Assembly: GCA_003251795.1 (NCBI GenBank)
Contig: QKEI01000055.1
Location: 8,593-72,592, forward strand
Reading direction: 5' to 3'
DNA from: Candidatus Muproteobacteria bacterium
GTDB lineage: Bacteria; Pseudomonadota; Gammaproteobacteria; Acidiferrobacterales; SPGG2
Length of the DNA: 64,000 nt
The position numbers were made by a program, and so were the translations under genes. The first letter of the stretch is position 1; each line of letters begins with the position of its first letter. Of this stretch, positions 7,303 through 44,664 are shown piece after piece. The notes beneath the pieces were generated by a model, which had not been told where the DNA came from, did not search any database, and was given only the letters and a program-made list of their open reading frames with translations.

Positions 7303-7303
7303 A

Positions 7304-17138: not shown

Positions 17139-17456
17139 ATGAGTGAGACCGGAATCAATTGGTATCGGGTAGCGGATTTGGACGAGTTGGCGGAGGGTGC
17201 GGTAAAGAAGGTCATCGCTGGCGAGCGAACCATTGCGCTTACGCATTTTGAAGGAAAATACGGCGCGCTCGACAACACCTGTCCTCATATGGGTGGTCCG
17301 CTGGCGGAGGGAACCATCGATTTCGGCGTCCTGATTTGTCCATGGCATGGCCGCGAGTATCATCCGCTCACGGGCGAGTGCGAAGCCTACGGTGAAGCAG
17401 TAACCACTTTTCCGGTAGAGGTGCGTAGCGACGGTATCTACATCGGTGTTTCATAG
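17139..17456 (+). CDS. Small soluble Rieske [2Fe-2S] protein (NirD/ferredoxin-like)
   Basis: CPHMGGPL ... CPWHGREY Rieske motifs. 105 aa with no signal peptide. Confidence 0.8.
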   Translation: MSETGINWYRVADLDELAEGAVKKVIAGERTIALTHFEGKYGALDNTCPHMGGPLAEGTIDFGVLICPWHGREYHPLTGECEAYGEAVTTFPVEVRSDGIYIGVS

Positions 17457-17550: not shown

Positions 17551-18042
17551 ATGGTTAATAGGCGTGGTTTCATAAAGGTTAGTTGTACCGGCGTTGCCGG
17601 ACTTGTGGTTGCTCGACATGGCATGCATTCTGTGGCGGCGCAGTCGCCTCAGACATCGGTCTACCCGATTGTCGATATTGCGCCGTTGTCGTCCATTGCC
17701 CGCGGTGCTGCCATTCCGTTCAGTTATCCCGACGAGCGCTCGCCGGCGCTGCTGCTACGGGTCAACGAACCCGCTGCCGCAGGCGTCGGTCCGAACAACG
17801 AAATCGTTGCCTATTCCACCCTGTGCACCCATAAGGGATGTCCCGTCAGTTACAAGCCTGAGCGCAAGCTGTTCATCTGTCCATGCCACTGGAGCACCTT
17901 CGATCCCGTGAAGTCGGGCACGCTCGTGATCGGCCAGGCGAGCGAAGCGCTGCCGCAGATTAATCTGCGCGTGCTCGCGGGCATGGTGCAGGCGCAGGGT
18001 GTGAGCGGCCTGATTTACGGCCGTTACACAAATATCGTTTAG
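17551..18042 (+). CDS. aioB: Arsenite oxidase small (Rieske) subunit with Tat signal
   Basis: Twin-arginine NRRGFIK, Rieske CTHKGCP...CPCHWSTFD and the C-terminal GLIYGR..N.. are typical of AioB. Confidence 0.85.
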   Translation: MVNRRGFIKVSCTGVAGLVVARHGMHSVAAQSPQTSVYPIVDIAPLSSIARGAAIPFSYPDERSPALLLRVNEPAAAGVGPNNEIVAYSTLCTHKGCPVSYKPERKLFICPCHWSTFDPVKSGTLVIGQASEALPQINLRVLAGMVQAQGVSGLIYGRYTNIV

Positions 18043-18055
18043 CTGGGATGCGCTA

Positions 18056-21537: not shown

Positions 21538-21540
21538 ACC

Positions 21541-22446
21541 ATGAATGATCCCGCCAACAGTGAATCGAGCGTTACCGTCGACGAGGGATTTGGTGCCAAG
21601 GCGCAGACGAAAAAGGTGGAGGTGGCGATAACGCGTCTCTGGGCTGCACTGGTCGGTGAGTACTTCGGCACTTTCATCCTCGTATTCTTTGGCGTTGGTG
21701 CGGTTAATGCAGCGGTGCTGACCGGCGCGCAGGCGGGGCTCTGGCAGGTCGCAGTTGTTTGGGCCGTCGGCGTGAGCGTGGCGATCTATACGGTCGCCGG
21801 ACTCTCCGGCGCCCACATCAATCCCGCCATCACTCTGGCGGCCGCGCTCTACGATCGCTTTCCCTGGCCGCGCGTGCTGCCTTATTGGATTGCGCAGACG
21901 GCCGGCGCGGCCTGCGCATCGCTCGTGCTCTACGGTATGTTCGCCGAAGCGATCATCGAGTTTGAACGTCACCACGGGTTGTTGCGCGGGGGCCCGGGTA
22001 GTGAGTTGAGTGCCATGGTGTTTGGCGAATACTTTCCTAATCCAGCGTTGTACGGCACCGCCGAGGAGGCCTGGCGTGTGGTTAGCCCGGCGGCGGCGTT
22101 TTTCGCCGAAATGGTGGGCACGGCAATGCTTGCCTTTATCGTCTGGTCGGTGACGAATGTACGCAATCCGGCACGACCGGGCGCAGCCGCGGCTGCGGTC
22201 GTCATCGGCGTTGGTGTCGCCGCCATCATTTCCGTGATCGCGCCGCTTACGCAGGCGGCCCTCAATCCGGCACGTGATCTCGGACCGCGGCTGGTGTCTT
22301 ATTTCCTTGGCTGGGGCGAGATTGCCATTCCCGGCCCGCGTGGCGGCTGGCTCACGGTTTACGTGCTCGGCCCGCTGGTCGGCGGCGTTATCGGTGCCGG
22401 TTTGTATCGCATCGTCGCCTGGCATCTGCCGCGTGCCCATGAGTGA
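21541..22446 (+). CDS. MIP-family channel (aquaglyceroporin, possible As(III) conduit)
   Basis: Two NPA boxes (SGAHINPAITLA; LNPARDLGPRL) and a six-TM pattern. Confidence 0.85.
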   Translation: MNDPANSESSVTVDEGFGAKAQTKKVEVAITRLWAALVGEYFGTFILVFFGVGAVNAAVLTGAQAGLWQVAVVWAVGVSVAIYTVAGLSGAHINPAITLAAALYDRFPWPRVLPYWIAQTAGAACASLVLYGMFAEAIIEFERHHGLLRGGPGSELSAMVFGEYFPNPALYGTAEEAWRVVSPAAAFFAEMVGTAMLAFIVWSVTNVRNPARPGAAAAAVVIGVGVAAIISVIAPLTQAALNPARDLGPRLVSYFLGWGEIAIPGPRGGWLTVYVLGPLVGGVIGAGLYRIVAWHLPRAHE

Positions 22447-30250: not shown

Positions 30251-30396
30251 ATTCCCCTCCTAGTTATTTGGTGTGTTAGACCAAAACGATATTGACAAAT
30301 AGCCGGCTTCAATTCAATCTTCTAGAACTATGGAGGAGTCATCTGGCTGCGCGTTTTGGCGCAGTGCAGCGTGCGCACAACAACGAGGACCCCACC

Positions 30397-32519: not shown

Positions 32520-33080
32520 ATGCAATACGGTTTCTACTTCGATCATAAGCGCTGCGTGAAATGTCACGCGTGCGAGATTGCCTGCAAGACGTGGAACGAG
32601 GTCGAGATCGGCCCGCGTTGGCGCGAAGTCGTCAAGATTACCTCCGGCACCTTCCCAAACGTGACGGCAATGAATGTGTCGATGGCCTGTATGCATTGCG
32701 GCGATGCGCCATGCCGAAACGCCTGCCCGGTGAACGCGATCAGCAAGCGCACCGAGGATGGCATCGTCCTCGTCGATCAAAACAAATGCATCGGTTGCGG
32801 CTTCTGCACATGGGCGTGCCCATTTAATGCACCGCAGCTCTCGGCCATGGCCGGCAAGATGGAAAAATGTAACTTCTGCCAGACGCCCGGCAAGGAACGG
32901 CCACTCGGCATGCCGCGGGCGTGCGAGGAGATCTGTCCGACCGGTGCCATACGCTCAGGTTCGATGACGGAGCTGGCCAGCAGCGGCCGCGAACGTGCCG
33001 CCGAGCGCCTCGCCGCGCAGGGCCTGCCCGGGTTGATTCTGGATGCGCAGCAGCGCTTTGGCGTTGCCGGCGGTGACTAG
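32520..33080 (+). CDS. 4x[4Fe-4S] ferredoxin-type electron-transfer subunit (PsrB/DmsB-like)
   Basis: CVKCHACEIAC, CMHCGDAPC, CIGCGFCTWAC and CNFC...C cluster motifs. Its ATG lies 12 nt after the alpha-subunit stop. Confidence 0.85.
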   Translation: MQYGFYFDHKRCVKCHACEIACKTWNEVEIGPRWREVVKITSGTFPNVTAMNVSMACMHCGDAPCRNACPVNAISKRTEDGIVLVDQNKCIGCGFCTWACPFNAPQLSAMAGKMEKCNFCQTPGKERPLGMPRACEEICPTGAIRSGSMTELASSGRERAAERLAAQGLPGLILDAQQRFGVAGGD

Positions 33081-33123: not shown

Positions 33124-33468
33124 ATGAACAAGATGAGCAAACCAGAGGTCATCGACGCGCTGTGTGCACTCGCTCACGAAAGCCGTCTCGATATTTTTCG
33201 CTACCTTATTCAGAAAGGCTTCACCGGCGCAGCCGCCGGCCAGATCGCTGGGAAACTTCGTCTGCCGTCGGCGACGCTTTCGTTTCACTTGAGTGCGCTC
33301 AAGCAAGCCGGTCTGGTCGTCGCCCGACGCGAGAGTCGTTCCATCATTTACAGCGCCAGCTTCGACAGCATGAATGCATTAGTGGCTTATCTGCTGTCGA
33401 ATTGCTGTGGCGGTGTGCCGGAGGCGTGTGCCGAGTTGATCTCATTAGACGCAGCGAAAGGCCGCTAG
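33124..33468 (+). CDS. arsR: ArsR/SmtB-family metalloregulator with a C-terminal Cys triad
   Basis: wHTH ESRLDIFRYL...LSFHLSALKQAGLV. The C-terminal SNCCGGVPEAC (a vicinal Cys pair plus a third Cys) is reminiscent of the Acidithiobacillus-type As(III) site. Confidence 0.8.
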   Translation: MNKMSKPEVIDALCALAHESRLDIFRYLIQKGFTGAAAGQIAGKLRLPSATLSFHLSALKQAGLVVARRESRSIIYSASFDSMNALVAYLLSNCCGGVPEACAELISLDAAKGR

Positions 33469-33539: not shown

Positions 33540-34409
33540 ATGTTAGGCCAACAGATCATGAGTGGTTTAGCCACCGGCAGTCTCTATGCTTTGACTGCCG
33601 TGGCGGTGGTCGTGGTCTTCCGCAATACCCGCACTATTAACCTCGCGCAGGGTGATTTCTCGATGATGGGCGCGTTTATCGCCATCATTCTGCTGAAGAC
33701 TTACGGACTCAACTACTATGCGACCATTGTCTTGTGCGTGCTCGCGATCATGGCATTGGGCGTGCTTACCGAGCGCCTGGTCATGCGTCCGATTGCCGAC
33801 TCCGACTGGTTAACGCTGTTTACTGCCACGCTCGGTGTCTACTACATCTTGCACGGCGTTGCCGGTTGGATCTGGGGGCGCGACACCAAGGCATTTCCGG
33901 TTACGTTCGATCCGACGCCGGTGCATATCTTCGGCACAGTCGTCAGTCACGGACACCTAATCAACATGGGTTGGGCGGCGGCCATCGGCGTCGTGTTGTA
34001 CGTATTTTTCAAGTACACCAAACAGGGCATCGCCATGCGCGCTGTTACTGACGACCCGGAAACCGCCAAGCTCATGGGCATCCCCGTCCGGTTCATTGTC
34101 ACACTGACGTGGGCGATGGCGGGATTTCTCGCGGCGTTCATTGGCATCCTGATCGCGCCCATCATCTATGTGGCGCCGGAAATGATGGACGAGGTGTTGA
34201 TCAAGGGTTACGTCGCCGCGGTTTTCGGTGGGCTCTATTCGATCCCAGGGGCGATCATCGGCGCGCTCATGATCGGCGTGGCGGAAAATCTGGCCGGTGG
34301 TTATCTGGGGTCACATTACAAGACGGCCACCGCGTTTGCCATGATTGTGGTCTTGCTTACGTTCAGGCCGCAGGGGCTGTTCGGTATTCAGAAGCGCCGT
34401 GAGATCTAA
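33540..34409 (+). CDS. livH: Branched-chain-amino-acid-type (HAAT) ABC transporter permease
   Basis: LivH-like membrane protein, first gene of a five-gene HAAT cassette. Confidence 0.85.
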   Translation: MLGQQIMSGLATGSLYALTAVAVVVVFRNTRTINLAQGDFSMMGAFIAIILLKTYGLNYYATIVLCVLAIMALGVLTERLVMRPIADSDWLTLFTATLGVYYILHGVAGWIWGRDTKAFPVTFDPTPVHIFGTVVSHGHLINMGWAAAIGVVLYVFFKYTKQGIAMRAVTDDPETAKLMGIPVRFIVTLTWAMAGFLAAFIGILIAPIIYVAPEMMDEVLIKGYVAAVFGGLYSIPGAIIGALMIGVAENLAGGYLGSHYKTATAFAMIVVLLTFRPQGLFGIQKRREI

Positions 34410-34427
34410 GCGCCACGGGAGTAGCGA

Positions 34428-35519
34428 GTGAACGAGATGGTTGCGGCGGCGCGAACGTCTGCGCCGATAGCAAATCGACAGGCTGTTGCCGCGCTGAAAG
34501 CGAGATTCGCGCAACAGAACTGGATCTTCGCCGGTGTCTTGTTTGCATTGCTGGCGCTAGTGCCACTGCTGCCGGTGGTCGAAGGCTGGATGGCGACACA
34601 GGCGGCGCTGGTGATCATCTATATCCTGGCAGCGCAAGGCGTAAGCGTGTTGACCGGCCACACGGGTTTGGTAACCGTAGGTCACGGCGGTTTCCTCGCC
34701 ATTGGTGCCTATACTTCGGCGCTGATGAGCCACTATCTGGGTGCGGATCTGCTGAGCGGTATGATTTGCGGCGGCCTCATGGCCGCGCTTATCGGCTGCC
34801 TTTTGGGTCTGATCTTTCTCAGGCTTGCCGGCGCTTTCATGGCCATCGGTACCTTGGGTTTCGCCTTCTTCATCGGCACCATCGTCAACAACGTGCCGAT
34901 CTTCAATGGACGCACGGGTTTCTCGTTACCGCCGAATAATCTCTTCGGTGTCATCGATATCGGCGATTTCGGGTTCTACTACGTGTGCCTCGTGACCTTG
35001 GCATTAATGACGTTATTCATGTACAGCCTAGTGCGGTCCGGCGTCGGTCGCGCGTTTAAAGCGCTGCGCGATGCCGAGAAGGCGGCACAAAGCAGCGGCG
35101 TAAACCGCCTCTTCTACCGGACTTTGGCCTTTACCATCAGCGCCTTTATCACCGGCGTTGCCGGCGCCTTGAATGGCCACATCGTGAGCTTCGTGTCTGC
35201 CGAGGTCTACGCCGACATCTGGTACTCGGTAGACATTCTGGTCGCAGCCATCGTCGGCGGTTCGGCCATGTTGTTCGGCCCGTTCATCGGTGGTGTCTTT
35301 ATCGTCATGGTGCCGTTCTTCTTCGAGGAGCTGGCAGATTTCTCCTTTATCCTCAAGGGCATCGTCTTGATTGGTGTGCTCATGTTGGCACCAGCAGGCG
35401 TGGCCGACGTCGCGGCCAGACCGTTTCGTGCGATGCGGCAACGCGCGCTCGCTCAGGCGGGCGGCGCGACAGCTCGTGAGCACGGCAGAACAGGTGGATC
35501 GCCTGGGGGCGCGGAATGA
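34428..35519 (+). CDS. livM: HAAT ABC transporter permease
   Basis: LivM-like membrane protein. Confidence 0.85.
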   Translation: MNEMVAAARTSAPIANRQAVAALKARFAQQNWIFAGVLFALLALVPLLPVVEGWMATQAALVIIYILAAQGVSVLTGHTGLVTVGHGGFLAIGAYTSALMSHYLGADLLSGMICGGLMAALIGCLLGLIFLRLAGAFMAIGTLGFAFFIGTIVNNVPIFNGRTGFSLPPNNLFGVIDIGDFGFYYVCLVTLALMTLFMYSLVRSGVGRAFKALRDAEKAAQSSGVNRLFYRTLAFTISAFITGVAGALNGHIVSFVSAEVYADIWYSVDILVAAIVGGSAMLFGPFIGGVFIVMVPFFFEELADFSFILKGIVLIGVLMLAPAGVADVAARPFRAMRQRALAQAGGATAREHGRTGGSPGGAE

Positions 35520-36289
35520 CTCAGCTGCGCTGCGAAAACATTACGGTGAGCTTTGGCGGTGTTGTTGCTTGCAACAACATCAGTCTGGAAGTGCCGACGG
35601 GCAAGATCGTCGGTCTGATCGGTCCTAATGGCGCCGGTAAGACAACGCTATTCAACGTGCTCAGCCGATTCCAGGATCATGATAGCGGCCATATCTATTA
35701 TCGCGATCAAGACATCGACCGCAAAAAGCCGCACCAGATGGTCGAGCTCGGTATGGCGCGCACCTTTCAAAACATCAATCTTTTCGGTGAGCAATCCACG
35801 CTCGATAACATCCTTATTGGTGCGCACCATCTCATCGGCAATCCCTTCGCCGACATGTTCTCGCTGCCGGCGGCGCGCCGCACAGAGCGCTCGTTGGTGC
35901 AGCGGGCAAACGAGATCGCGGAGATGCTGCACATGCAAGACGAACTCGACACCCTCGTCAAGAATCTGCCCTATGGCTATCGCAAGCGCGTTGAGCTGGC
36001 GCGCGCGCTGGCATCGCAGCCCGAGTTGATCCTGCTCGACGAACCGGTGGCCGGTTGCAACGATGAAGAGACCGATGAGCTCAGGGGCATCGTGCAACGC
36101 TTAAATCGCGAGCTCGGCATCACGATTTTTCTGGTTGAGCACGATATGTCGATGGTAATGAATGTGTGCGACTACATTTACGTGATCAACTTCGGCTCCA
36201 ATCTTGCCGATGGCACGCCGGCGGAAGTGCAGGCGAACGCGGATGTCATCAGCGCTTATTTAGGTGAGGAGCACGATGACGCTGCTTAG
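35516..36289 (+). CDS. livG: HAAT ABC transporter ATP-binding protein
   Basis: Walker A GPNGAGKTT, the signature LPYGYRKRVE.. and Walker B LILLDEP. Confidence 0.9.
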   Translation: MTQLRCENITVSFGGVVACNNISLEVPTGKIVGLIGPNGAGKTTLFNVLSRFQDHDSGHIYYRDQDIDRKKPHQMVELGMARTFQNINLFGEQSTLDNILIGAHHLIGNPFADMFSLPAARRTERSLVQRANEIAEMLHMQDELDTLVKNLPYGYRKRVELARALASQPELILLDEPVAGCNDEETDELRGIVQRLNRELGITIFLVEHDMSMVMNVCDYIYVINFGSNLADGTPAEVQANADVISAYLGEEHDDAA

Positions 36290-36995
36290 GCTGGAAAACG
36301 TGGTGGCGAGTTACGGTGCCGTACGCGCGCTGCAAGGTATCTCGATTGATGTGCAGAGTGGCGCAATCGTTGCCCTGCTCGGCGCCAACGGTGCCGGCAA
36401 GTCGACCACGCTAAAGACGATCTCGGGCATGGTGCGACCGGCCTCGGGTTTCGTCGAGTACGACGGGCAGCGCCTCGAGGGCAAGACCCCGAATCAGATC
36501 GTCCGTCTGGGTATCGCCCAGATACCTGAAGGCCGCAAGATCTTCAAGGACTTGACGGTGTCGGAAAATCTGCGCATGGGCGCCTATACGCGCAAGGACA
36601 AGGCGGGCATCGAACAAGACCAGGAGCTGGTGTTTGTGCTGTTCCCGATCCTCAAGGAACGGGCCAGGCAGCTCGGCGGCTCCTTAAGTGGCGGCGAGCA
36701 GCAGATGTTGGCGATCGGCAGGGGCCTGATGGCGCGACCGCGGTTGCTGCTGCTAGATGAGCCGTCGCTGGGATTGGCGCCGCTGCTGGTCGCGGACATC
36801 TTCCAGGCCCTGCGCAGAATCAATAAGGAGCGCGGTACCACATTGCTGATCGTCGAGCAGAACGCACATGTGGCGTTGAAGAACGCTAATTTCGGTTATG
36901 TGCTACAAGTCGGCAGAGTGGCCACTGAGGGTACGTCGGAGGAGCTACAACGTAACAGGGAGGTAGTCGAGTCGTATATGGGAACACAGCAGTAG
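36276..36995 (+). CDS. livF: HAAT ABC transporter ATP-binding protein
   Basis: Walker A GANGAGKST, LSGGEQQML and LLLLDEPS. Confidence 0.9.
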   Translation: MTLLRLENVVASYGAVRALQGISIDVQSGAIVALLGANGAGKSTTLKTISGMVRPASGFVEYDGQRLEGKTPNQIVRLGIAQIPEGRKIFKDLTVSENLRMGAYTRKDKAGIEQDQELVFVLFPILKERARQLGGSLSGGEQQMLAIGRGLMARPRLLLLDEPSLGLAPLLVADIFQALRRINKERGTTLLIVEQNAHVALKNANFGYVLQVGRVATEGTSEELQRNREVVESYMGTQQ

Positions 36996-37071
36996 TGCAA
37001 GAGTGCCATGGAACGGTGTGCTGTAAATGGGGTCAAGAAGTCTTAATTAGGAGGCTCAACTGGAGGTCGAT

Positions 37072-38259
37072 ATGAAACGTCTGATGAAGTTAGTGTTAAC
37101 GCTTGTGAGCAGCGGTGTGCTCGCCTTGCTCTCGGTTCATGCGTCAGCCGCGAATGATCCGGGGGTTAGTGCCAAGGAGATACTTATCTGCTCTTACCAA
37201 CCCATGACCGGCAAGATATCGAGTTACTTCCGCATGGGAAAGGGGGCAGATGCGTGGTTCAAGTATGTCAACGATCAGGGTGGAATCAACGGCCGCAAGA
37301 TCGATTACAAAATGGTTGATGACAAGTACGAGCCGGCACGGACCATGACAGTAGTCAAGCGCTTTATTGAGAGAGACAAGTGTTTTGCCATTGTCTCACC
37401 GCTGGGTTCCGCGCCTACAGCCGCTGTTATCGATTACATCACATCCAAGGACGTGCCGTTGATCGGTGCCGGTACCGGTGCGGAAAAGAACCTGACCTAT
37501 CCAAGTAAGTGGGTATTCCCGCTGTATCCGAGTTATTTCACCGAAGGGCAGCAGCTGGTGCGTTTTGCCAAGGAAGTATTTGGTGCCAAGACAGTGGCCT
37601 TGCTCTACCAGAATGACCCATCCGGCAAGACCCATATCAAGGGCATCGAGTCGGTGCTCGATAAATATGGCGTCAAGCTGGTGGCCCAGGAGGGTTACGA
37701 GCAGAAGGAAGTGGACGTCAGCGCGCAGGTGATTGCCATGAAGAACGCCAATCCAGACGCGGTTATTTGTTCTTGCGCGCCGGAGCCGGCGGCCAAGTTC
37801 TACACCGAGCGCAAGAAGCTCGGCTGGAACGTGCCGGTGGTCAACGTGTTCTTCGGCAAGAGCCCCAAGGTTCCCGAGCTGGCCGGCAAGGACGCGGTCG
37901 AGGGCGTGTACTTCTCTACCATCTTCCGTGACTTCAACTCGCCGGCACCGCAGATTCAACAGGCCAAGGAGTTGCTGAAGAAGTACTATCCGGAGGAGCA
38001 ACCTGACGCGATCCATCTCTGGGGTTTCGCCGGTGCGCAGGTGTTCACCGAGGCCCTGCGCCGCATGGGGCCGGACAACATCACGCGCGCGCGATTGGTG
38101 GAAACCCTGGAAAGCATCCAGGACTGGAAGGGTAGCGTGGTGCCGTCGGTCTCCATCGGTCACGGCAACGCCCCCGAGCACTTCATCGTCAAAGACATGG
38201 CCTGGGTGGTTTATAAGAACGGCGAATTCCAGGACTTCAAGCCACCCTGGGGCGGGTAG
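37072..38259 (+). CDS. HAAT-family periplasmic solute-binding protein (type I PBP)
   Basis: A signal peptide followed by a LivK-like domain. The ligand is unknown. Confidence 0.85.
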   Translation: MKRLMKLVLTLVSSGVLALLSVHASAANDPGVSAKEILICSYQPMTGKISSYFRMGKGADAWFKYVNDQGGINGRKIDYKMVDDKYEPARTMTVVKRFIERDKCFAIVSPLGSAPTAAVIDYITSKDVPLIGAGTGAEKNLTYPSKWVFPLYPSYFTEGQQLVRFAKEVFGAKTVALLYQNDPSGKTHIKGIESVLDKYGVKLVAQEGYEQKEVDVSAQVIAMKNANPDAVICSCAPEPAAKFYTERKKLGWNVPVVNVFFGKSPKVPELAGKDAVEGVYFSTIFRDFNSPAPQIQQAKELLKKYYPEEQPDAIHLWGFAGAQVFTEALRRMGPDNITRARLVETLESIQDWKGSVVPSVSIGHGNAPEHFIVKDMAWVVYKNGEFQDFKPPWGG

Positions 38260-38509: not shown

Positions 38510-39856
38510 ATGGCAGAAATTATCGGTAAGGCGATTCCGCCTGAGCGGAAGCGGGTGATCGATACCCTGCACTTGCGGGAACCCGACAAGGTACCCGTGG
38601 GCCTGTGGGGCACGATCGAAGGCTATCAAAATCTGCGGCGTGGCCTGGGCATGGACTACAAGGCCGACGCGCGCGATTACCGTACGGGCTCGACCAGCTG
38701 GACCACGGATGTGGCCTTTGAACTCGATCTGGCGGAAAAACTGGGTTTGGACTTTGTGCGCATATCGATGGGTCCCCCCGGGGGCTCGCCGGGGTTTCGC
38801 GACATCAGGTTCGAGGAGGTGCCGTTCGACATGGGCATTCCGCCACCCGACGTCGACATCAACGTGGACGAGTGGGGCGTGGTGCGCAAGTGGACGCCGC
38901 ATGAACAGGGCGGCTACTACGAGATGATCGGCTATCCGCTGTATCACGCGACCAGCGCGCCGTTGGAAGAGGGGCTCAAGATCCTCGAGGAGTTTCCATG
39001 GCCGGACCACACGGATGAGTCCTGTTGGAACGACGCGCCGATTCCCGGCATGACGCTGCGTCAATATTGCAAGTACATCCGGGAGGAGACCCCCTTTGCG
39101 GTCATGGGTCAGGGCGGGCGCGGCGGCTTGTTCGAACAGGCAAAGTACATGGTGGGCTACGCCAAGATCTTCTCCGATTTTATCGAGTCGCCCGAATTTC
39201 TCGACGCGATGCTGACCAAGTTGACCGATCTTGAAATCGAAGCCAACAAGGCCTTCCTCGATCAGGTCGGCGAGTACATCGATTGGTTACGCATGAGCCC
39301 AGAGGATCTGGCGAGCGAGAAGACTGCGTTTATCTCGCTGAAGATGTTCAATAAACAGCTGAAGCCGCATTACATGCGCGCGATCCAGGAAACTAAGGAG
39401 TACTACTTGAAGAAAAACCCGCTTGGCCGTATTCAGTTTCATAGCTGCGGCGCCATCCCCGAGGTGTTCATGCGCGGGCTCATCGACTGCGGCGTTGATG
39501 GTTATGATAGCCTGCCCCCAAAGGTGGCGCGTCACTCCAATCCGGCCGCAAAGAAACGCCAGCTTGGCAGGGAGATGTTCTTCTACGGTGGCATCGACGT
39601 GCAGGAGACTCTGCCTTGGGGCAAGCCGGAGGACGTGCGTGCCGAGGTGCGTGCCAGGATCTGGGAGATGGGTCACGGTGGTGGTTACCTATTGAGCTCG
39701 TCGCATCGTCTCGAGCATGACGTGCCGATTGAGAACACACTCGCCATGATCGAGGAGGCACGTGAGTATGGCGTTTATCCGTTGCCCAAGGATCCTCCAC
39801 CCGGGGCCGATATCGGCGAGGAAACGGAAGAATGGGGTGGTCTGAAGAAGGATTGA
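38510..39856 (+). CDS. URO-D-family methyltransferase, second MT-I candidate
   Basis: URO-D-like TIM-barrel pattern with HxC (QFHSCGA) and the N-terminal REPDKVPV motif. It shares the ..EEAREYGVYPL / ..EAQKDYGVYGKYPL C-terminal motif with the 8039-9208 paralogue. Confidence 0.8.
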   Translation: MAEIIGKAIPPERKRVIDTLHLREPDKVPVGLWGTIEGYQNLRRGLGMDYKADARDYRTGSTSWTTDVAFELDLAEKLGLDFVRISMGPPGGSPGFRDIRFEEVPFDMGIPPPDVDINVDEWGVVRKWTPHEQGGYYEMIGYPLYHATSAPLEEGLKILEEFPWPDHTDESCWNDAPIPGMTLRQYCKYIREETPFAVMGQGGRGGLFEQAKYMVGYAKIFSDFIESPEFLDAMLTKLTDLEIEANKAFLDQVGEYIDWLRMSPEDLASEKTAFISLKMFNKQLKPHYMRAIQETKEYYLKKNPLGRIQFHSCGAIPEVFMRGLIDCGVDGYDSLPPKVARHSNPAAKKRQLGREMFFYGGIDVQETLPWGKPEDVRAEVRARIWEMGHGGGYLLSSSHRLEHDVPIENTLAMIEEAREYGVYPLPKDPPPGADIGEETEEWGGLKKD

Positions 39857-39902
39857 ATGCCCCAGCCAGTATTGTCGTCGATTGGCTGTCCGAGGGATAA
39901 GC

Positions 39903-40739
39903 ATGCCGCTGCAAATCGAAACTGAGAAAGAGTTTGATATCGAAGATCTGAAGCACGATATCGACGCGACGCGCAAGACTGACCGTTGGAGCGAGGCGCC
40001 GGCGGACGTCAAAGACCTGTTTCATCAGATCGAGTGGAATATTATCGACGGGGAACACGCTGAAACGCCCAGCCTCATCAATCCCGCGCTGGAAAAGGAT
40101 GTGTCGGCGCGTACGCTCATCGCCGGTCCGATGGCGACTGGCATCGCTGAGGTAGGCCGGCGTTTCAAGATGGATGAGTATTTCCTGCCTGAAGTGATGA
40201 TGTCGGCCAAATGCATGCATGCGGCACTGGCGATATTGAAACCGTTGATCATCGCTGAGAAAACGGAAGAGATCGGTACCGTGGTCGTCGGTACGGTGCA
40301 GGGCGACTTGCACGACATCGGCAAGAAAATCGTCGCCATGATGTTGGAGGCAGCGGGTTTTACCGTGTTCGATCTCGGTGTGACCGTACCACCGGAAGAT
40401 TTCATCGCCGCCATCAAGGAGCACAAACCGCAGATCGTCGGCTTCTCCGCTCTGCTAACCACCACCATGAACATGCAATGGGAGACTATCAAAGCAATCC
40501 AAGCGGAGGGTCTGCGTGAACAGGTTAAGGTATTCGTCGGCGGCGCGCCCATCAGCCAGGGGTGGTGCGACAAAATCGGTGCCGATGCCTATGCCGCCGA
40601 TGCACTGATTGCCGTGGAAAAAGCCAAGGCCTGCGTGCAAGAATTCCGTGATCTTAAGGGAGGCGATCCGGCGCTGCATGCCGCCATGTTGGCGCTGGAT
40701 GCCGAACGCATGGCGCAGAAGGCCGCCGTCGCGGGCTGA
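39903..40739 (+). CDS. Corrinoid (B12-binding) protein, second copy
   Basis: GDLHDIGKKIV (DxHxxG), SALLTTTM and a GGAP loop, with an N-terminal cap domain. Confidence 0.85.
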   Translation: MPLQIETEKEFDIEDLKHDIDATRKTDRWSEAPADVKDLFHQIEWNIIDGEHAETPSLINPALEKDVSARTLIAGPMATGIAEVGRRFKMDEYFLPEVMMSAKCMHAALAILKPLIIAEKTEEIGTVVVGTVQGDLHDIGKKIVAMMLEAAGFTVFDLGVTVPPEDFIAAIKEHKPQIVGFSALLTTTMNMQWETIKAIQAEGLREQVKVFVGGAPISQGWCDKIGADAYAADALIAVEKAKACVQEFRDLKGGDPALHAAMLALDAERMAQKAAVAG

Positions 40740-40778
40740 TTCGCAAGCAAACGTGCCATAACCGTAACTAACGCCGCC

Positions 40779-41888
40779 ATGCCTTTACCGGCGCTGACAA
40801 GACCGTCGCTCTGGGGCCCCGCAATAATCGGCGCCGTAGTGTTTCTTGCAGGTCTTTTCGGCACGCTCAACGCGGCCTGGGGTTACGGCCTGTTTCTCGT
40901 CGCCGGTGCGCTGCTGTTCGCAGGTCTGCTGGTATTTGGCGTGTTCGTGCTTTCGCGAAGTTTCGACAGCGACACACTGCGCTGGAGTTACACTTGGCTG
41001 TTCACGCTTGGTGCCTGGTGTTATGTCTATTGCGTGTGCGCTTTTGCCGGATATTTTACCTACGAGACCCTACAGGGACGCATGGAGCTGCGCTGGATAC
41101 TGTTCGGACCAGCGGTGTTGGCAGCGCTCATCGTGCTCGACACGGGTATCTATCGCATGATCGTGCGCAAGAACGCGCCGACCTACGAGCGCTACCGGCG
41201 CTACATATCGCGCGAAGCCAGCGACCCGGCCGCCATGCGCCGCACGTTGGTGGATGACGTGCTGTTGCAGAAGGCGCTGTACTCCGTGAGTGGTGTGCGC
41301 TGGCTGCGGCATACGTTGATTTTCTGGGGATTCATATTGATGTTCCTGGTCGAGCTGGCGGCGATTGTGTTTCGTGAGGCGTTGCCGGCATTTGGTCTTG
41401 CCGACGTCTGGCGCGAACCAGGGAGTTTGCTGCGCCTGGCATTTGACTTCGCGTTCGACTTTTTCGGTTTGATGGTGCTGATCGGCGCGAGCATGGCGCT
41501 ACTGTGGCGCCTCACGGTTAACGGCACTGAGCAACAAAAGTACGCCGATACGCCGACGGCGGTATTCCTGTTGTTTGTGGTCGTCAGCGGTTTTCTGGTG
41601 GAAGCGATACGTCTCGGCGCCGCGCCAGCAGCACCTTATGCCACAACAGAGTTCGTTGGTTATGCGATGGCGGCGTTGTTACCGCACAGCGACAGACTTG
41701 TGGGCGCGTACGAACCGCTCTGGTTGATCCACGTCCTCGGTGCTTGTCTGTTCATCGCCTACGTGCCGCTCATGCGCCTGGTGCATTCGTGTGCCACACC
41801 GGTGGGCCGACTGGCGAATTCGCAGAAACAATTGTTGGCGGCCAAGAAGCAGGCCATGTTGAGCGGTCTACTAACGCGTCGGCCATAA
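40779..41888 (+). CDS. Polytopic membrane protein with a NarI/DsrM/HdrE-like cytochrome-b C-terminal half
   Basis: About 9 predicted TM helices. The C-terminal helix carries IHVLGACLFIAYVPLMRLVH, two His 18 residues apart as in NarI helix V. An earlier helix carries WLRHTLIFWGF. The N-terminal ~120 aa add extra helices of unknown family. Confidence 0.55.
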   Translation: MPLPALTRPSLWGPAIIGAVVFLAGLFGTLNAAWGYGLFLVAGALLFAGLLVFGVFVLSRSFDSDTLRWSYTWLFTLGAWCYVYCVCAFAGYFTYETLQGRMELRWILFGPAVLAALIVLDTGIYRMIVRKNAPTYERYRRYISREASDPAAMRRTLVDDVLLQKALYSVSGVRWLRHTLIFWGFILMFLVELAAIVFREALPAFGLADVWREPGSLLRLAFDFAFDFFGLMVLIGASMALLWRLTVNGTEQQKYADTPTAVFLLFVVVSGFLVEAIRLGAAPAAPYATTEFVGYAMAALLPHSDRLVGAYEPLWLIHVLGACLFIAYVPLMRLVHSCATPVGRLANSQKQLLAAKKQAMLSGLLTRRP

Positions 41889-41931: not shown

Positions 41932-42753
41932 ATGACTAAAGTTATCGCCATCTACGGTAAGACGTGCTCGCTCAAATCGGATGTCGCCCGTGGCATCTCG
42001 CGATTGACCGGCTACAAGGTGAAACATCCGGGCGAGGCCGCCACCACCTACGCCAAGGTCGCCAAGCTCGACTCTGCCCTCAAGTTGTCTGAGGAGCGAC
42101 ACCGGGCGATTGACGAAGATACGCTTGCCTGGATCAAAACGACTCGCGATCCCGTCATCATCATCGAGAGCACGCTATTGGACGCCGTGCTCAAGGATGT
42201 GGGCGATGTGTTCCGGGTGCATTTACATTCGCGCGATGAGGTTCGCCAGCAACGTTGGCACCGACGCAAAGAAGAGGGCGGCGGCCGCACACGCCAGATA
42301 GGCGATAGTGTCGAGCGCCGCGACCATGACGACGCTGAGTTGCGCGCAAAGCTTTACGGTGCGGACTCCGGGAGCCGCGCTCCGGATCTGGAGCTCGAGA
42401 CTTCAGAACGCTCAGCCGAGGATTGCGCGCGCGCGATTTGGGCGGCGTTTCAGGGCGAGGACGCACTGGCGCGCGGGACTGCTTCGGTAGGCAAGCCGGC
42501 GATGGACAAGAGTCAGCGCAAGGGCATTCGCCCCGGAGCAAGCAGCGGAACCGTGAAAGTATACAGCGCCAACCGCAATCCCTTCGGCGGTTATATCACG
42601 GACGATCACAGCAAACGCGATGTCTTCGTGCATAAGTCGGCGGTGGATGAGGCCGGCTTGGAGAGGTTACAAAAGGGTCAACGCGTAAGCTTCGATATAG
42701 TCGAGGACGGTTTTGGCGGCTTCAAGGCCGTCAAGGTCAGGCCATCCGCCTAA
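41932..42753 (+). CDS. Fusion protein: cytidylate-kinase-like P-loop-fold N-domain (degenerate Walker A) + C-terminal cold-shock domain
   Basis: The N-terminus IAIYGKTCSLKS has no canonical GK[ST]. The C-terminus GTVKVYSANRNPFGGYITDD..DVFVHKSAV....L..GQRVSFDIV aligns with the CspA fold. Confidence 0.55.
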   Translation: MTKVIAIYGKTCSLKSDVARGISRLTGYKVKHPGEAATTYAKVAKLDSALKLSEERHRAIDEDTLAWIKTTRDPVIIIESTLLDAVLKDVGDVFRVHLHSRDEVRQQRWHRRKEEGGGRTRQIGDSVERRDHDDAELRAKLYGADSGSRAPDLELETSERSAEDCARAIWAAFQGEDALARGTASVGKPAMDKSQRKGIRPGASSGTVKVYSANRNPFGGYITDDHSKRDVFVHKSAVDEAGLERLQKGQRVSFDIVEDGFGGFKAVKVRPSA

Positions 42754-42776
42754 CATGACGGCGCTGGCGATCGAAC

Positions 42777-43052
42777 ATGCCCAAGTTGAAGCAGGTTCTT
42801 CCCGAGCAGTTTCTCGCAGGCGCTTACGACGATACGCCAGCGTACTCGTTGCGTGATACGGAAGTGATAGCGCGCAAGTTGACGACCGGCGCGCCCTGTG
42901 ACAGCGCTAGCAAGAACGATCTTTTCCAGGCCTGGCCCGGCCCGCACGAGCATGTAGGCTATTGGTTCATTCTTGATAACGGCAAGGCCGTCGGTGTCAA
43001 CGAGGACCCGAAAAAGGGCTTCTCCTTTCCTGTGGTTGATTATCAGGCGTGA
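42777..43052 (+). CDS. Hypothetical small protein
   Basis: 91-aa ORF whose stop overlaps the LysR start (GTGA). No motif recognised. Confidence 0.35.
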   Translation: MPKLKQVLPEQFLAGAYDDTPAYSLRDTEVIARKLTTGAPCDSASKNDLFQAWPGPHEHVGYWFILDNGKAVGVNEDPKKGFSFPVVDYQA

Positions 43053-43984
43053 CGATGGATTGGGATCGTTTGCGCACCTTCCATGCGGTAGCCGAGGCGG
43101 GAAGTTTCACCCGAGCCGGTAAGGCGCTGGGTCTTAGCCAGTCGGCGGTGAGTCGGCAGATCGCCGTGCTTGAGCGCGCCTTAAAGGTCTCGCTGTTTCA
43201 TCGCCATGCGCGGGGGCTGGTATTGACCGAGCAAGGCGAAGAGATCTACCGCACGGTGCAGGAGATGGCCGCCAAGCTTGCCTTGGCGCAAGCGCGTATC
43301 AACGAAAGTCGAGAGCAACCCGAAGGACCAGTGAAGATCACGACCTCGGTCGCCTTCGGGTCGGCGTGGTTGACGTCACGCATGAATACCTTCCATGCGC
43401 TCTATCCCGACATCCGCGTGACCCTGCTGTTGGTCGACAATTTGGAGCTTGATCTGTCGTTGCGCCAGGCCGACGTGGCGATTCGCTTCGCTCAGCAACG
43501 TCAGGCCAATCTGATTCAGCGCCATCTGATGACCATCCATTACCAGGTGTTTGCCACGCAGGAGTATCTGAAAAAAAACGGCACACCGCTCACGCCGCAG
43601 GACCTGGATGACCATGAAATCATCGTCTATGGTGAGGATGTGCCGGCACCTGTCGCGGACATGAACTGGCTGTTACAGGCGGGAGCAACGCCCGGTAAAC
43701 CACGCGAGCCGGCGTTGCGGGTGAACAGCGTCTACGGTATCTATCGGGCCGTGCGCAGCGGGTTCGGCGTCGCCGCACTACCTTACTATATGAGCAGCGA
43801 ATCCCCCGAGCTGGTACACATCTTACCGGCATTACATGGACCCAGCATCGACGCCTACTTTGTTTACCCCGAGGAGTTACGTCACTCGAAACGCATCGCC
43901 GTTGTGCGTGATTTCTTGCTGCGTCAGGTAGCGGAAGACGAGCTGGCGGATAGCCGGCCGAGTCAGCGCCGCGTCGGCGAATAA
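43049..43984 (+). CDS. LysR-family transcriptional regulator
   Basis: N-terminal HTH (LRTFHAVAEAGSFTRAGKALGLSQSAVSRQI) plus a LysR substrate-binding domain. Confidence 0.85.
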   Translation: MTMDWDRLRTFHAVAEAGSFTRAGKALGLSQSAVSRQIAVLERALKVSLFHRHARGLVLTEQGEEIYRTVQEMAAKLALAQARINESREQPEGPVKITTSVAFGSAWLTSRMNTFHALYPDIRVTLLLVDNLELDLSLRQADVAIRFAQQRQANLIQRHLMTIHYQVFATQEYLKKNGTPLTPQDLDDHEIIVYGEDVPAPVADMNWLLQAGATPGKPREPALRVNSVYGIYRAVRSGFGVAALPYYMSSESPELVHILPALHGPSIDAYFVYPEELRHSKRIAVVRDFLLRQVAEDELADSRPSQRRVGE

Positions 43985-44042
43985 CCATGTGCCTTGCCAT
44001 CCCGCCTCACCCCGAAAAGACTCTGCGTTTGACCATCGCATC

Positions 44043-44300
44043 ATGAGTAAACCGATCTCGCCGCAAATAGGTCCGTACGCGGTCAGGGTGGAGCAGGGCA
44101 AGCGTTATCGCTGGTGCAGGTGCGGACGCAGCATCACGCAACCGTGGTGTGACGGCTCGCACGAGGGTACCGGTCTCGAGCCCATCGAATTCGAGGCGCC
44201 GATCAGCGAGATTTTCTACATGTGCGGATGCAAGAGATCCGATAATCCTCCGTACTGTTTCGGTAACTGCACAGGTAATGCCCGTTCGCGCAACGGCTAG
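44043..44300 (+). CDS. CDGSH-type iron-sulfur domain protein
   Basis: CRCGRS..QPWCDGSH plus a second degenerate repeat CGCKRS..PPYCFGNC. I chose the ATG at 44043. Confidence 0.7.
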   Translation: MSKPISPQIGPYAVRVEQGKRYRWCRCGRSITQPWCDGSHEGTGLEPIEFEAPISEIFYMCGCKRSDNPPYCFGNCTGNARSRNG

Positions 44301-44349
44301 TGCGCTGCTAGCGAAGCTGCGATGGCGGTAGCACCAGGGAGAAGGCACT

Positions 44350-44664
44350 ATGGCGCGTGGGCAATTATATAAGGTGGTCATCAAGCACAACATCGTTTGC
44401 GCTATTCAGCGCATCGATGAACCTTCGCTAGTGGACGTCCCGCAAAGCAAGTTAGAGGTGAGTGCGCAGCTGGCGACAAACAACCAGATCAATGGCTGTA
44501 TCGACGGCGACTATTACTTCCAGGACGCGACGCTGGCCAAGAACTTCGCGGTGCTAGCGTTGGATTTTGTCAAACGTCTGACCGAGAAGACGCTGGAGCA
44601 GATCGAGAACCGCCATTTCGGCGGTGAGTTCGACTGGCGTAATCCGCACCAGGGCTCCAACTAA
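44350..44664 (+). CDS. Hypothetical protein
   Basis: 104-aa ORF, noticeably less GC-rich than its neighbours. No motif recognised. Confidence 0.35.
   Translation: MARGQLYKVVIKHNIVCAIQRIDEPSLVDVPQSKLEVSAQLATNNQINGCIDGDYYFQDATLAKNFAVLALDFVKRLTEKTLEQIENRHFGGEFDWRNPHQGSN

What the first reader, a model, noticed from the sequence alone, without database searches (positions are those of the whole stretch)
38510..41888. MT-I + corrinoid protein followed by a NarI/DsrM-like cytochrome-b membrane protein: a possible membrane-linked corrinoid redox partner
A second URO-D MT-I and a second DxHxxG corrinoid protein have no adjacent MT-II or ATP-dependent activase. The next gene, 39 nt downstream on the same strand, encodes a ~9-TM protein. 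Its C-terminal half looks like the nitrate-reductase-gamma/DsrM/HdrE haem-b family, with two His exactly 18 residues apart in one helix, as in NarI helix V. No DsrK/HdrD/NarGH-type partner is nearby.

The hypothesis is that the membrane protein connects the quinone pool or membrane potential to the corrinoid protein. That could mean reductive reactivation of Co(II), or disposal of electrons.

A five-gene HAAT ABC importer and an ArsR regulator lie immediately upstream and could supply the methylated substrate.
Basis: inference. Interest (0 to 1): 0.8.

Follow-up and report, generated by a model that had tools for sequence, protein, structure and literature searches.

The report
Membrane anchor of a corrinoid-linked molybdoenzyme
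The membrane protein next to the vitamin-B12 carrier is most likely the quinone-linked anchor of a molybdenum enzyme encoded 7.7 kb upstream, part of an undescribed gene cluster, found in many uncultured bacteria, that joins B12-dependent methyl transfer, this molybdenum enzyme and arsenite oxidase.

Summary
There is a URO-D methyltransferase (38510-39856), a DxHxxG corrinoid protein (39882-40739) and, 39 nt later, a NarI/DsrM-type membrane protein (MEM, 40779-41888) with His318 and His336 18 residues apart.

Two premises fail.
- A NarGH-like partner is present: a Psr-like, Cys-ligated molybdopterin subunit without a Tat signal (MoA, 30394-32508) and a four-cluster ferredoxin (MoB, 32520-33080), on the same strand.
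- The window also holds a RACo activase (5398-7302) and a pterin methyltransferase (9325-10320).

In 20 of 80 genomes the order is MoA-MoB-MT-CP-MEM with nothing between. In Nitrospirota and three distant metagenomic lineages, MEM homologues directly follow MoB orthologues. In 72 of 80 genomes MEM directly follows the corrinoid protein.

Best reading (0.7): MEM is the quinone-linked haem-b gamma subunit of a cytoplasm-facing alpha-beta-gamma molybdoenzyme that works with the corrinoid demethylase, not a corrinoid reductase.

An arsenite oxidase (AioBA), a pentapeptide-repeat protein and a MIP channel are recurrently fused to the same cluster, and ArsR regulators recur in it. This suggests methylated arsenic as substrate, but that is unproven. 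No paper in the searched library describes the cluster.

The parts
40779..41888 (+). MEM: 369-aa membrane protein with 8 TM helices. The NarI/DsrM-like core is TM4-8 (about residues 100-369), preceded by a 3-TM N-terminal extension. Proposed gamma subunit.
   Evidence: Pfam Nitrate_red_gam, 30.1 bits. Invariant H178, H318 and H336; M188 at least 90% conserved. These correspond to NarI H56, H187, H205 and H66. Topology. AF2 model pLDDT 81.7.
39882..40739 (+). CP285: corrinoid (B12-binding) protein with DxHxxG. The likely start is Met8 (39903).
   Evidence: Pfam B12-binding and B12-binding_2. NCBIfam MtgC/MtbC-like, below cut-off. 71 orthologues aligned.
38510..39856 (+). MT448: URO-D/MtaA-superfamily methyltransferase. 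Presumed substrate:corrinoid MT-I.
   Evidence: Pfam URO-D. Invariant H311, C313 and H399, at the positions of the MtaA zinc ligands H-x-C...C. This mapping is direct for the paralogue MT439 and by motif analogy for MT448.
30394..32508 (+). MoA: 704-aa Mo-bisPGD catalytic subunit. It is Psr/Phs-like, has an FS0 Cys motif and a Cys Mo-ligand in HTSGC, and has no twin-arginine signal. The ORF opens at 30292.
   Evidence: Pfam Molybdop_Fe4S4, Molybdopterin and Molydop_binding. Best PDB match is PsrA 2vpw, E 2e-88, with Cys173 aligned. Orthologues are 702-705 aa. Motifs are invariant.
32520..33080 (+). MoB: 186-aa four-cluster ferredoxin subunit (DmsB/PsrB/NarH type).
   Evidence: Pfam Fer4_11; NCBIfam DmsB-like, 154.6 bits. 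Four Cys groups read directly. A GGGGGG ribosome-binding site and ATG lie 11 nt after the MoA stop.
33124..33468 (+). ArsR-family regulator with a C-terminal NCC...C motif, inserted between MoB and the importer.
   Evidence: Pfam HTH_20 and HTH_5. Homologues lie next to MoB or MIP in 7 metagenome loci. Motif.
33540..38259 (+). HAAT-family ABC importer: LivH, LivM, LivG and LivF homologues plus a Peripla_BP_6 binding protein.
   Evidence: The same five genes lie between MoB (or its position) and MT448 in many loci.
41932..44664 (+). Conserved downstream genes: AAA/cytidylate-kinase-like protein with a cold-shock domain, a 91-aa protein, LysR, a CDGSH [2Fe-2S] protein and a 104-aa protein.
   Evidence: Pfam. 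Conserved order in most loci.
17551..22446 (+). AioB, AioA (arsenite oxidase), a pentapeptide-repeat protein and a MIP channel. This block is recurrently fused to the MoA end of the cluster.
   Evidence: NCBIfam TIGR02694 (153 bits, cut-off 95.7) and TIGR02693 (970 bits, cut-off 359). Synteny.
3756..10320 (-). Module A: GntR, CobW, RACo activase, corrinoid protein CP242, URO-D methyltransferase MT439 (389 aa, 8039-9208) and a pterin-binding methyl-corrinoid:THF methyltransferase.
   Evidence: Pfam. NCBIfam. The same module lies beside the cluster in L003, L019, L071, L081, L086, L100, L110, L117 and L147.
15467..17456 (+). Ferredoxin reductase, a [2Fe-2S] ferredoxin and a small Rieske protein. 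This is a possible electron supply for RACo.
   Evidence: Pfam. ORFs. The ferredoxin and/or Rieske protein, followed by the BHMT-like methyltransferase, lie directly upstream of MoA in L085, L095, L098, L101, L107 and L135.

Best explanation
MEM is the membrane-anchoring gamma subunit of a three-subunit molybdoenzyme, and it interacts with quinone and probably binds haem b. The catalytic subunit (MoA, Psr/Phs-like, Cys-ligated Mo-bisPGD) and the four-cluster ferredoxin subunit (MoB) face the cytoplasm.

Electrons pass between the quinone pool and the Mo site along this route: MEM haem(s), then the MoB FeS chain, then MoA FS0. The proximal haem site is His178/His336 at the cytoplasmic face. The distal site is His318 plus probably Met188.

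This redox module is genetically welded to a conventional corrinoid demethylase. An imported methylated compound would give its methyl to Co(I)-CP285 via MT448. The methyl would then pass to tetrahydrofolate (pterin methyltransferase) or homocysteine (BHMT/MtgE-like protein). Oxidised Co(II) would be re-reduced by the ATP-dependent RACo, not by MEM. The molybdoenzyme would carry out the two-electron step on the heteroatom that carries or carried the methyl group, either before demethylation or between successive demethylations.

What is shown: family assignments, conserved ligand positions, topology, synteny and co-occurrence.

What is inferred: physical MoAB-MEM assembly, haem binding, direction of electron flow and the substrate.

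The ancestral gene order appears to be MoA-MoB-MEM. In Pseudomonadota, MT448-CP285 sits between MoB and MEM. In this window an ArsR and the ABC importer were additionally inserted after MoB.
For: 1. Distant MEM homologues (29-39% identity) directly follow MoB orthologues (56-66% identity), which follow MoA orthologues (52-68% identity) wherever the contig reaches that far. This holds in Nitrospirota L075 and L077 and in metagenomic L088 (CP-MoA-MoB-MEM), L090 and L091.
2. In 20 of 80 genome loci the order is MoA-MoB-MT448-CP285-MEM, contiguous on one strand. Another 6 have MoAB further upstream in the same locus and 2 have MoB directly before MEM.
3. Where MoAB is not in the locus it can still be nearby. 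It lies 12 kb away, divergent, in L085 and 80 kb away, beside module A, in L086.
4. A MoA-centred survey found MEM in 10 of 21 loci that have at least 9.5 kb downstream. No other membrane-subunit gene lies beside MoB in the two loci inspected for this, L095 and L115.
5. MoA has no twin-arginine leader and MoB has four Cys clusters. This is the geometry a NarI-type anchor serves.
6. MEM's wider family consists of DsrM/NarI-like domains fused to CCG/Fer4 proteins or to multihaem cytochromes. These are electron-transfer modules with FeS or haem partners.
7. The cytoplasmic C-terminal tail (H-x-x-A-x-P-x-G-R-L...SQ) is shared between MEM and the short homologues that sit beside MoB.
8. H178, M188, H318 and H336 match NarI H56, H66, H187 and H205. 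Charged loops place H178 and H336 at the cytoplasmic side.
9. RACo is in the window, and a second RACo lies in the cluster elsewhere.
Against: - In Pseudomonadota, MEM always stays next to CP285, even when MoAB is 12-80 kb away. A direct MEM-corrinoid protein contact therefore cannot be excluded.
- 42 of 80 genome loci show no MoAB within the fetched flank. I could not scan those genomes, so a lineage with MEM but no MoAB is not ruled out.
- Only three of NarI's four haem ligands are His. In the wider family the fourth position is Leu.
- Foldseek of the AF2 model against the PDB gave no significant NarI match. The profile search of PDB sequences also missed NarI. hhalign against NarI was weak (E 0.07).
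- No structure or interface prediction of a MoB-MEM complex was possible.
Confidence: 0.7

Rival explanations
1. MEM is a direct redox partner of the corrinoid protein. It links quinol or membrane potential to Co(II)-to-Co(I) reactivation, or drains electrons, in place of an ATP-dependent activase.
For: CP285 lies immediately upstream of MEM in 72 of 80 genome loci, and this adjacency holds wherever MoAB sits. No activase lies within the MT448-CP285-MEM operon of this window.
Against: - RACo is in the window, and a cluster-internal RACo paralogue lies between LysR and CDGSH in at least 12 loci.
- In four distant lineages the homologue follows MoB, not a corrinoid protein.
- No known family member has a non-FeS, non-haem partner.
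- There is a gap of about 0.4-0.6 V between quinol and Co(II)/Co(I), and the field opposes inward electron transfer in NarI geometry (established knowledge, not computed here).
Confidence: 0.1
2. A supercomplex. MEM anchors both MoAB and the MT448-CP285 pair at the membrane, so that the product of one enzyme is handed directly to the other. MEM's 3-TM N-terminal extension or its long cytoplasmic loop (128-178) would serve as the docking site.
For: - MEM is linked both to CP285 (72 of 80 loci) and to MoB (distant lineages).
- The cytoplasmic loop is highly conserved and Arg-rich: R138, R145, R154, R174, W175.
- All five genes are co-linear in 20 genomes.
Against: - No direct evidence of contact.
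- Short MEM homologues that lack the N-terminal extension still occur with a corrinoid protein (L088), so the extension is not required for that association.
- Co-regulation alone could explain the gene order.
Confidence: 0.15
3. MEM works with the conserved downstream CDGSH [2Fe-2S] protein (43989-44300), or with RACo, as a quinone-linked electron feed to the activase, independently of MoAB.
For: CDGSH is conserved downstream of MEM in most loci, and it directly follows the second RACo paralogue in Burkholderiales loci. Pfam zf-CDGSH, E 1e-14.
Against: - CDGSH is absent from the distant MoA-MoB-MEM loci that were fetched.
- The same thermodynamic objection applies.
- A ferredoxin reductase, ferredoxin and Rieske set (15467-17456) is a more ordinary electron source.
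Confidence: 0.05

Closest known systems
Respiratory nitrate reductase NarGHI (E. coli), gamma subunit NarI
   Same: - Cytoplasm-facing Mo-bisPGD subunit and four-cluster FeS subunit, with a NarI-family membrane subunit.
- Two His 18 apart on the last helix (NarI H187/H205 = MEM H318/H336), and a His at the cytoplasmic end of helix II (H56 = H178).
- Alpha-beta-gamma gene order in the distant lineages.
   Different: - MoA is Psr/Phs-like with a Cys ligand, not NarG-type (NarG NCBIfam 96.6 bits against a cut-off of 1084).
- The window has no narJ-like chaperone gene next to MoAB.
- MEM has three extra N-terminal TM helices and Met in place of NarI His66.
- Sequence similarity to NarI is marginal.
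- The genes are embedded in a corrinoid methyltransferase cluster.
DsrM/HdrE/QmoC-type membrane cytochromes b (DsrMK, HdrED, Qmo)
   Same: These are the closest relatives by HMMER: 250-285-aa DsrM-like proteins and fusions to CCG/Fer4 (DsrK/HdrD-like) domains. They share H178, H318, H336, E275 and R278. There is a weak QmoC hit.
   Different: The partner here is a DmsB/PsrB-type ferredoxin plus a molybdopterin subunit, not a CCG-domain protein. No CCG domain was found among the window proteins scanned.
Polysulfide/thiosulfate reductase PsrABC/PhsABC
   Same: MoA's best structural relative is PsrA (2vpw, E 2e-88), with the Mo-ligand Cys aligned. MoB is a PsrB/DmsB-like four-cluster protein.
   Different: - Psr and Phs are periplasmic (Tat) and use an NrfD-type haem-free anchor.
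- Here there is no Tat signal, and the anchor is NarI-type.
- The PhsA NCBIfam score of 436 is below the cut-off of 694.
- The active-site motifs CHHD and HTSGCEQDRR are specific to this clade.
Three-component corrinoid methyltransferase systems: MtsAB/MtaABC, the O-demethylases OdmB/VdmB, CmuAB, and the split MetH/MtgBCDE of Ruegeria pomeroyi (PMC12478193)
   Same: A URO-D MT-I, a DxHxxG corrinoid protein, a pterin-binding MT-II, a RACo/RamA activase, a BHMT/MtgE-like homocysteine methyltransferase and MetF paralogues. The aerobic-bacterial precedent is in PMC12478193.
   Different: - None of these systems is reported with a molybdoenzyme, a NarI-like protein or arsenite oxidase.
- The putative zinc site of MT448 and MT439 is His-Cys-His. 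It is not the His-Cys-Cys of S-methyltransferases, nor the carboxylate-containing site of O-demethylases (rule from PMC10418091).
- MtgB-type (MttB family) methyltransferases were not seen among the window proteins scanned.
Arsenite oxidase AioBA clusters
   Same: Bona fide AioB and AioA by NCBIfam equivalog cut-offs. They lie next to a MIP channel and ArsR-type regulators.
   Different: Canonical aio clusters are not known (to me, or in the searched library) to be fused to corrinoid methyltransferases or to a second, cytoplasmic Psr-like molybdoenzyme.

Membership tests
NarI / Nitrate_red_gam (PF02665) membrane cytochrome b | Profile match above the curated threshold | tested here: met
   30.1 bits against a gathering score of 22.9, but only profile positions 93-208 of 217, matching residues 228-346. 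Profile search of PDB sequences and Foldseek did not recover NarI.
NarI / Nitrate_red_gam (PF02665) membrane cytochrome b | Four His haem ligands: two 10 apart on helix II and two 18 apart on helix V | tested here: inconclusive
   Helix V pair present and invariant (H318, H336). Helix II has H178, but Met188 sits at +10 (at least 90% conserved in the clade; Leu in distant relatives).
NarI / Nitrate_red_gam (PF02665) membrane cytochrome b | Five-TM core with the C-terminus and the proximal-haem ligands on the cytoplasmic side | tested here: met
   There are 8 TM helices. K+R count is 21 in even (cytoplasmic) loops against 4 in odd loops. H178 and H336 lie at the cytoplasmic helix ends. AF2 helices.
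NarI / Nitrate_red_gam (PF02665) membrane cytochrome b | Binds haem b and reacts with quinol or quinone | not testable with these tools
   Needs expression, pyridine haemochrome or redox titration, and quinol oxidase/reductase assays.
Complex iron-sulfur molybdoenzyme (alpha-beta-gamma) | Mo-bisPGD subunit with an FS0 motif and a four-cluster ferredoxin subunit encoded together | tested here: met
   MoA has three Pfam domains and CxxCxxxC. MoB has four Cys groups. There are 11 nt between the genes. MoB follows MoA in 54 of 58 loci with enough sequence.
Complex iron-sulfur molybdoenzyme (alpha-beta-gamma) | Membrane subunit gene co-located with the alpha and beta genes | tested here: met
   Directly adjacent in L075, L077, L088, L090 and L091. 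Separated only by MT448-CP285 in 20 genomes. Separated by 7.7 kb on the same strand in the window.
Complex iron-sulfur molybdoenzyme (alpha-beta-gamma) | Physical assembly of alpha-beta with gamma | not testable with these tools
   No complex prediction or interface metric was available.
DsrMK / HdrED type | CCG-domain (DsrK/HdrD) partner | tested here: not met
   No CCG domain in any window protein scanned. CCG appears only in fused distant relatives.
Arsenate respiratory reductase ArrA (considered for MoA) | NCBIfam equivalog score and the active-site RGRY motif | tested here: not met
   189.5 bits against a cut-off of 1600. ArrA's RGRY aligns with CHHD in MoA, although H(-4) and the Cys ligand are shared. 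The RGRY role is recalled from memory.
Methyltransferase-cognate corrinoid protein | B12-binding and cap domains with DxHxxG | tested here: met
   plus direct reading of GDLHDIG. MtgC and MtbC NCBIfam scores are below the cut-offs, so no substrate-specific subfamily is assigned.
UroD-superfamily S-methyltransferase (MtaA/MtsA type) | His-Cys-Cys zinc site | tested here: not met
   In MT439, H and C of the HxC motif are kept, but His replaces the second Cys when aligned to MtaA 4ay7. MT448 has H311, C313 and H399 in the equivalent motifs. The rule is from PMC10418091.

The most novel reading that the evidence does not exclude
The whole cluster encodes an oxygen-independent pathway for methylated arsenic compounds. 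The components are AioBA, a pentapeptide protein, MIP, MoAB, an importer, MT448, CP285 and MEM, plus module A.

One direction is stepwise demethylation:
- Co(I)-corrinoid proteins remove methyl groups from pentavalent methyl-arsenic.
- The cytoplasmic MoAB-MEM enzyme resets the arsenic oxidation state against the quinone pool between steps.
- As(OH)3 leaves through the MIP channel and is oxidised by periplasmic AioBA.
- The methyl groups enter tetrahydrofolate.

The mirror image is also possible: a cobalamin-dependent Challenger-type methylation in which MoAB-MEM acts as the reductase.

Either way, MEM would be the energy-coupling link of a new branch of the arsenic cycle.
Probability: 0.2. 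Interest if true: 0.9.

Novelty: new variant of a known kind. Interest (0 to 1): 0.72.

Why it matters
- It would define a new architecture among membrane-bound molybdoenzymes: a Psr-like catalytic subunit on the cytoplasmic side, with a NarI/DsrM-type anchor.
- It would be the first case I could find of such a respiratory-type module hard-wired to corrinoid methyl transfer.
- The cluster is widespread. There are 80 species-level genomes, and all 80 records are titled as MAGs. They are mostly Pseudomonadota: Arenicellales, Rhodospirillales, Hyphomicrobiales, Burkholderiales, Acidiferrobacterales. Nitrospirota are also present. A further 69 metagenome loci carry MoA orthologues.
- It may therefore represent a substantial unrecognised route of methyl-group and possibly arsenic turnover in oceans, sediments and soils.
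- The enzymes for several corrinoid-dependent demethylations in aerobes remain unidentified, for example the proposed cobalamin-dependent DMS methyltransferase (PMC6548844). This cluster offers concrete candidate genes to test.

Tried and rejected
- Exact-sequence look-up of MEM found nothing. The 100%-identical cluster representative P0001 gave only a contig that overlaps the window.
- A profile search of PDB sequences with the MEM alignment missed NarI.
- Rfam found no riboswitch or other RNA in the window. The promoter and terminator scan was at background level and gave no reason to split the operon.
- MoA as formate dehydrogenase was rejected: the ligand Cys is followed by Glu rather than the His that follows the Sec/Cys in formate dehydrogenases (recalled), and the score is below the cut-off.
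- MoA as ArrA, PhsA or DmsA was rejected: all are far below the NCBIfam cut-offs.
- The mlp clusters of anaerobes (PMC10418091) were rejected as the same system: they have no molybdoenzyme or membrane protein, a different zinc site, and occur in strict anaerobes.
- The SAM-methyltransferase-fused ArsR at 13565-14590 resembles SahR-type methionine regulators (recalled). I did not count it as arsenic evidence.
- Inferring the substrate from the binding protein failed. The nearest PDB entries are generic branched-chain amino-acid or aromatic-acid binders.
- Eight literature searches found no description of the cluster.

Full report
**1. What is at the coordinates**

The three ORFs are real and co-directional.
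- 38510-39856 is a URO-D-family protein (MT448).
- 39882-40739 is a corrinoid protein with B12-binding and cap domains and GDLHDIG (CP285).
- 40779-41888 (MEM, 369 aa) starts 39 nt after CP285.

MEM hits Pfam Nitrate_red_gam above threshold over residues 228-346 and hits QmoC weakly.

An alignment of 34 orthologues (47-89% identity) shows only three invariant His: 178, 318 and 336. Met188 is at least 90% conserved. His318 and His336 are 18 apart. In an hhalign alignment with E. coli NarI they fall on NarI His187 and His205. The helix-II pattern H-x9-[H/M] places His178 on NarI His56 and Met188 on His66.

Hydropathy and the positive-inside rule give 8 TM helices, N-in and C-in. The Arg-rich loop 128-178 and the C-terminal tail are cytoplasmic. 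An AF2 model is confident (pLDDT 81.7), but Foldseek against the PDB gave nothing significant.

**2. The premise that fails**

Upstream on the same strand lie a molybdopterin oxidoreductase and a four-cluster ferredoxin.
- MoA orthologues are 702-705 aa, so its start is about 30394. The N-terminus has no twin-arginine motif.
- MoA's best solved relative is PsrA (E 2e-88), with the Mo-ligand Cys aligned. It fails the NCBIfam cut-offs for PhsA, ArrA, DmsA, NarG and formate dehydrogenase.
- The motifs CHHD and HTSGCEQDRR are invariant in 23 orthologues.
- MoB starts 11 nt after MoA, behind a G-rich ribosome-binding site.

The window also carries, on the minus strand, GntR-CobW-RACo-CP242-MT439-pterin methyltransferase (3756-10320). 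An ATP-dependent activase and an MT-II are therefore available.

**3. Neighbourhood evidence**

I surveyed 80 MEM-encoding genomes, one per species.
- 72 loci have CP285 immediately upstream of MEM.
- 6 have no or almost no sequence upstream of MEM.
- 2 (Nitrospirota) have MoB immediately upstream instead.
- 20 have MoA-MoB-MT448-CP285-MEM contiguous.
- 4 have the window's arrangement, with the ABC importer inserted.
- 2 have MoAB further upstream.
- 42 show no MoAB in the fetched flank.

For the loci without MoAB in the flank, MoAB was found 12 kb away and divergent (L085), or 80 kb away beside module A (L086).

More distant MEM relatives were found by an exhaustive HMMER search. They are 250-285-aa DsrM/NarI-like proteins, or fusions to CCG/Fer4 domains or to multihaem cytochromes c. 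Three of those I could place on contigs sit directly after MoB orthologues: L088 (CP-MoA-MoB-MEM), L090 and L091. They share MEM's cytoplasmic C-terminal tail motif.

A MoA-centred metagenome survey gave 69 loci with MoA orthologues.
- MoB follows MoA in 54 of 58 loci with enough sequence.
- MEM is present in 10 of 21 loci with at least 9.5 kb downstream.
- No alternative membrane-subunit gene lies beside MoB in the two loci inspected for this.

**4. Interpretation**

The simplest account is that MoA-MoB-MEM is an alpha-beta-gamma enzyme of the complex iron-sulfur molybdoenzyme kind. It is oriented like NarGHI but has a Psr-like catalytic subunit. It functions together with a corrinoid demethylase.

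The methyl path is ordinary: MT448 to CP285 to the pterin methyltransferase. In several Burkholderiales loci the pterin methyltransferase lies directly upstream of the importer-MT448-CP285-MEM genes on the same strand. A BHMT/MtgE-like homocysteine methyltransferase and MetF paralogues are also present, as in the split MetH/MtgBCDE network of Ruegeria (PMC12478193).

Reactivation is most plausibly by RACo. A second RACo paralogue lies inside the cluster in at least 12 genomes. A ferredoxin reductase, ferredoxin and Rieske set is nearby.

One is this genetic evidence. The other is known redox potentials (my own knowledge, not computed here).

It is not excluded that MT448 and CP285 dock on the membrane complex. 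The unbroken CP285-MEM adjacency argues for some intimacy.

**5. An unexpected link**

The window's 17551-22446 encodes AioB, AioA (970 bits against an equivalog cut-off of 359), a pentapeptide-repeat protein and a MIP channel.
- This block lies directly upstream of MoA on the same strand in 17 of 45 MoA-centred loci with enough upstream sequence.
- It lies directly downstream of MoB in three loci and is divergent in three others.
- It occurs in 11 of the 80 MEM-centred loci.
- Long co-linear versions run RACo-CobW-GntR-MTHFR-AioB-AioA-Penta-MIP-MoA-MoB-(importer)-MT448-CP285-MEM-h91-LysR-CDGSH-h104 (L100, L110, L117, L147).
- ArsR homologues recur beside MoB or MIP. The window also has an ArsR-ArsC-like fusion at 52920-53708.

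This points to methylated arsenic as a candidate substrate class. That is inference from gene content only. The putative zinc site of MT448 and MT439 (His-Cys-His) fits neither the S- nor the O-methyltransferase rule given in PMC10418091. MoA lacks ArrA's RGRY motif. The binding protein gives no clue. Methyl-sulfur substrates (sulfoxide reduction followed by thioether demethylation) remain possible; the cobalamin-dependent DMS methyltransferase of aerobes is still unidentified (PMC6548844).

**6. Novelty**

Eight full-text searches found no description of a corrinoid methyltransferase cluster with a molybdoenzyme, a NarI-like protein or arsenite oxidase. A review of the DMSO-reductase superfamily does not mention corrinoids or NarI. 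I rate MEM and its enzyme a new variant of a known kind. If the arsenic reading proved right, the pathway would be categorically new.

**7. Limits**

- There is no biochemical evidence.
- No complex model could be made.
- Haem binding is inferred from ligand positions.
- Several statements rest on my memory and are marked as such: redox potentials, ArrA residue roles, and the Cys motifs of As(III)- and MAs(III)-responsive ArsR proteins.

Noticed in passing
window 17551-22446 (+); also L095-L121, L131-L134, L147, L012-L051: A bona fide arsenite oxidase (AioB with a Tat leader, and AioA), a pentapeptide-repeat protein and a MIP channel form a four-gene block. The block is recurrently fused to the MoA end of the cluster in several orders.
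   Followed up: yes
window 33124-33468 (+); L045, L081, L095, L096, L098, L136, L137, L141, L156: The in-cluster ArsR has a C-terminal NCC...C motif. Homologues keep the vicinal Cys pair but not always the third Cys. From memory, this resembles As(III)- and MAs(III)-sensing ArsR types. I did not test this.
   Followed up: partly
window 52920-53708 (+) and 48911-52673 (-): An ArsR HTH fused to a low-molecular-weight phosphatase/ArsC-like domain lies divergent from a PhnD-type (phosphonate-binding) ABC transporter. The transporter was found in only one other fetched locus (L001, which overlaps the window).
   Followed up: partly
window 15467-17456 (+); L085, L095, L098, L101, L107, L135: A ferredoxin reductase, a [2Fe-2S] ferredoxin and a small Rieske protein. 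In other genomes the ferredoxin and/or Rieske protein plus the BHMT-like methyltransferase sit directly upstream of MoA. This may be the electron supply for RACo.
   Followed up: partly
window 11526-14590 (-): An MTHFR-like protein, a betaine-homocysteine S-methyltransferase equivalog (443.7 bits, cut-off 338) and an ArsR-HTH/SAM-methyltransferase fusion (SahR-like, from memory). Together these are split-MetH-style C1 genes like those in PMC12478193.
   Followed up: partly
L018, L020, L051, L054, L055, L063, L064, L069, L071, L074, L080, L081, L083: A second, divergent RACo paralogue (33-37% identical to the window's RACo) lies between LysR and the CDGSH gene inside the cluster. It is absent from the window.
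   Followed up: partly
window 38510-39856 and 8039-9208: Both URO-D methyltransferases have His-Cys-His at the MtaA zinc-ligand positions (H311/C313/H399 in MT448). This is an unusual coordination set for corrinoid methyltransferases of this superfamily.
   Followed up: partly
window 23941-30250 (-); L137, L094, L155, L158: An acyl-CoA ligase, an unannotated 240-aa ORF, a thiolase-like protein and a TRAP transporter lie between the MIP channel and MoA. Part or all of the same block accompanies MoA in some other loci.
   Followed up: no
window 54331-58087: A 521-aa Rieske-domain oxygenase, a LysR regulator and a DmmA-like Fer2/NAD-binding reductase. This may be an oxygen-dependent demethylase system in the same region.
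   Followed up: no
window 2623-3759 (+): A TauE/SafE-type sulfite exporter lies next to module A. Its annotated ORF overlaps the preceding alcohol-dehydrogenase ORF (1986-2981) by about 360 nt, so its true start is probably further downstream.
   Followed up: no
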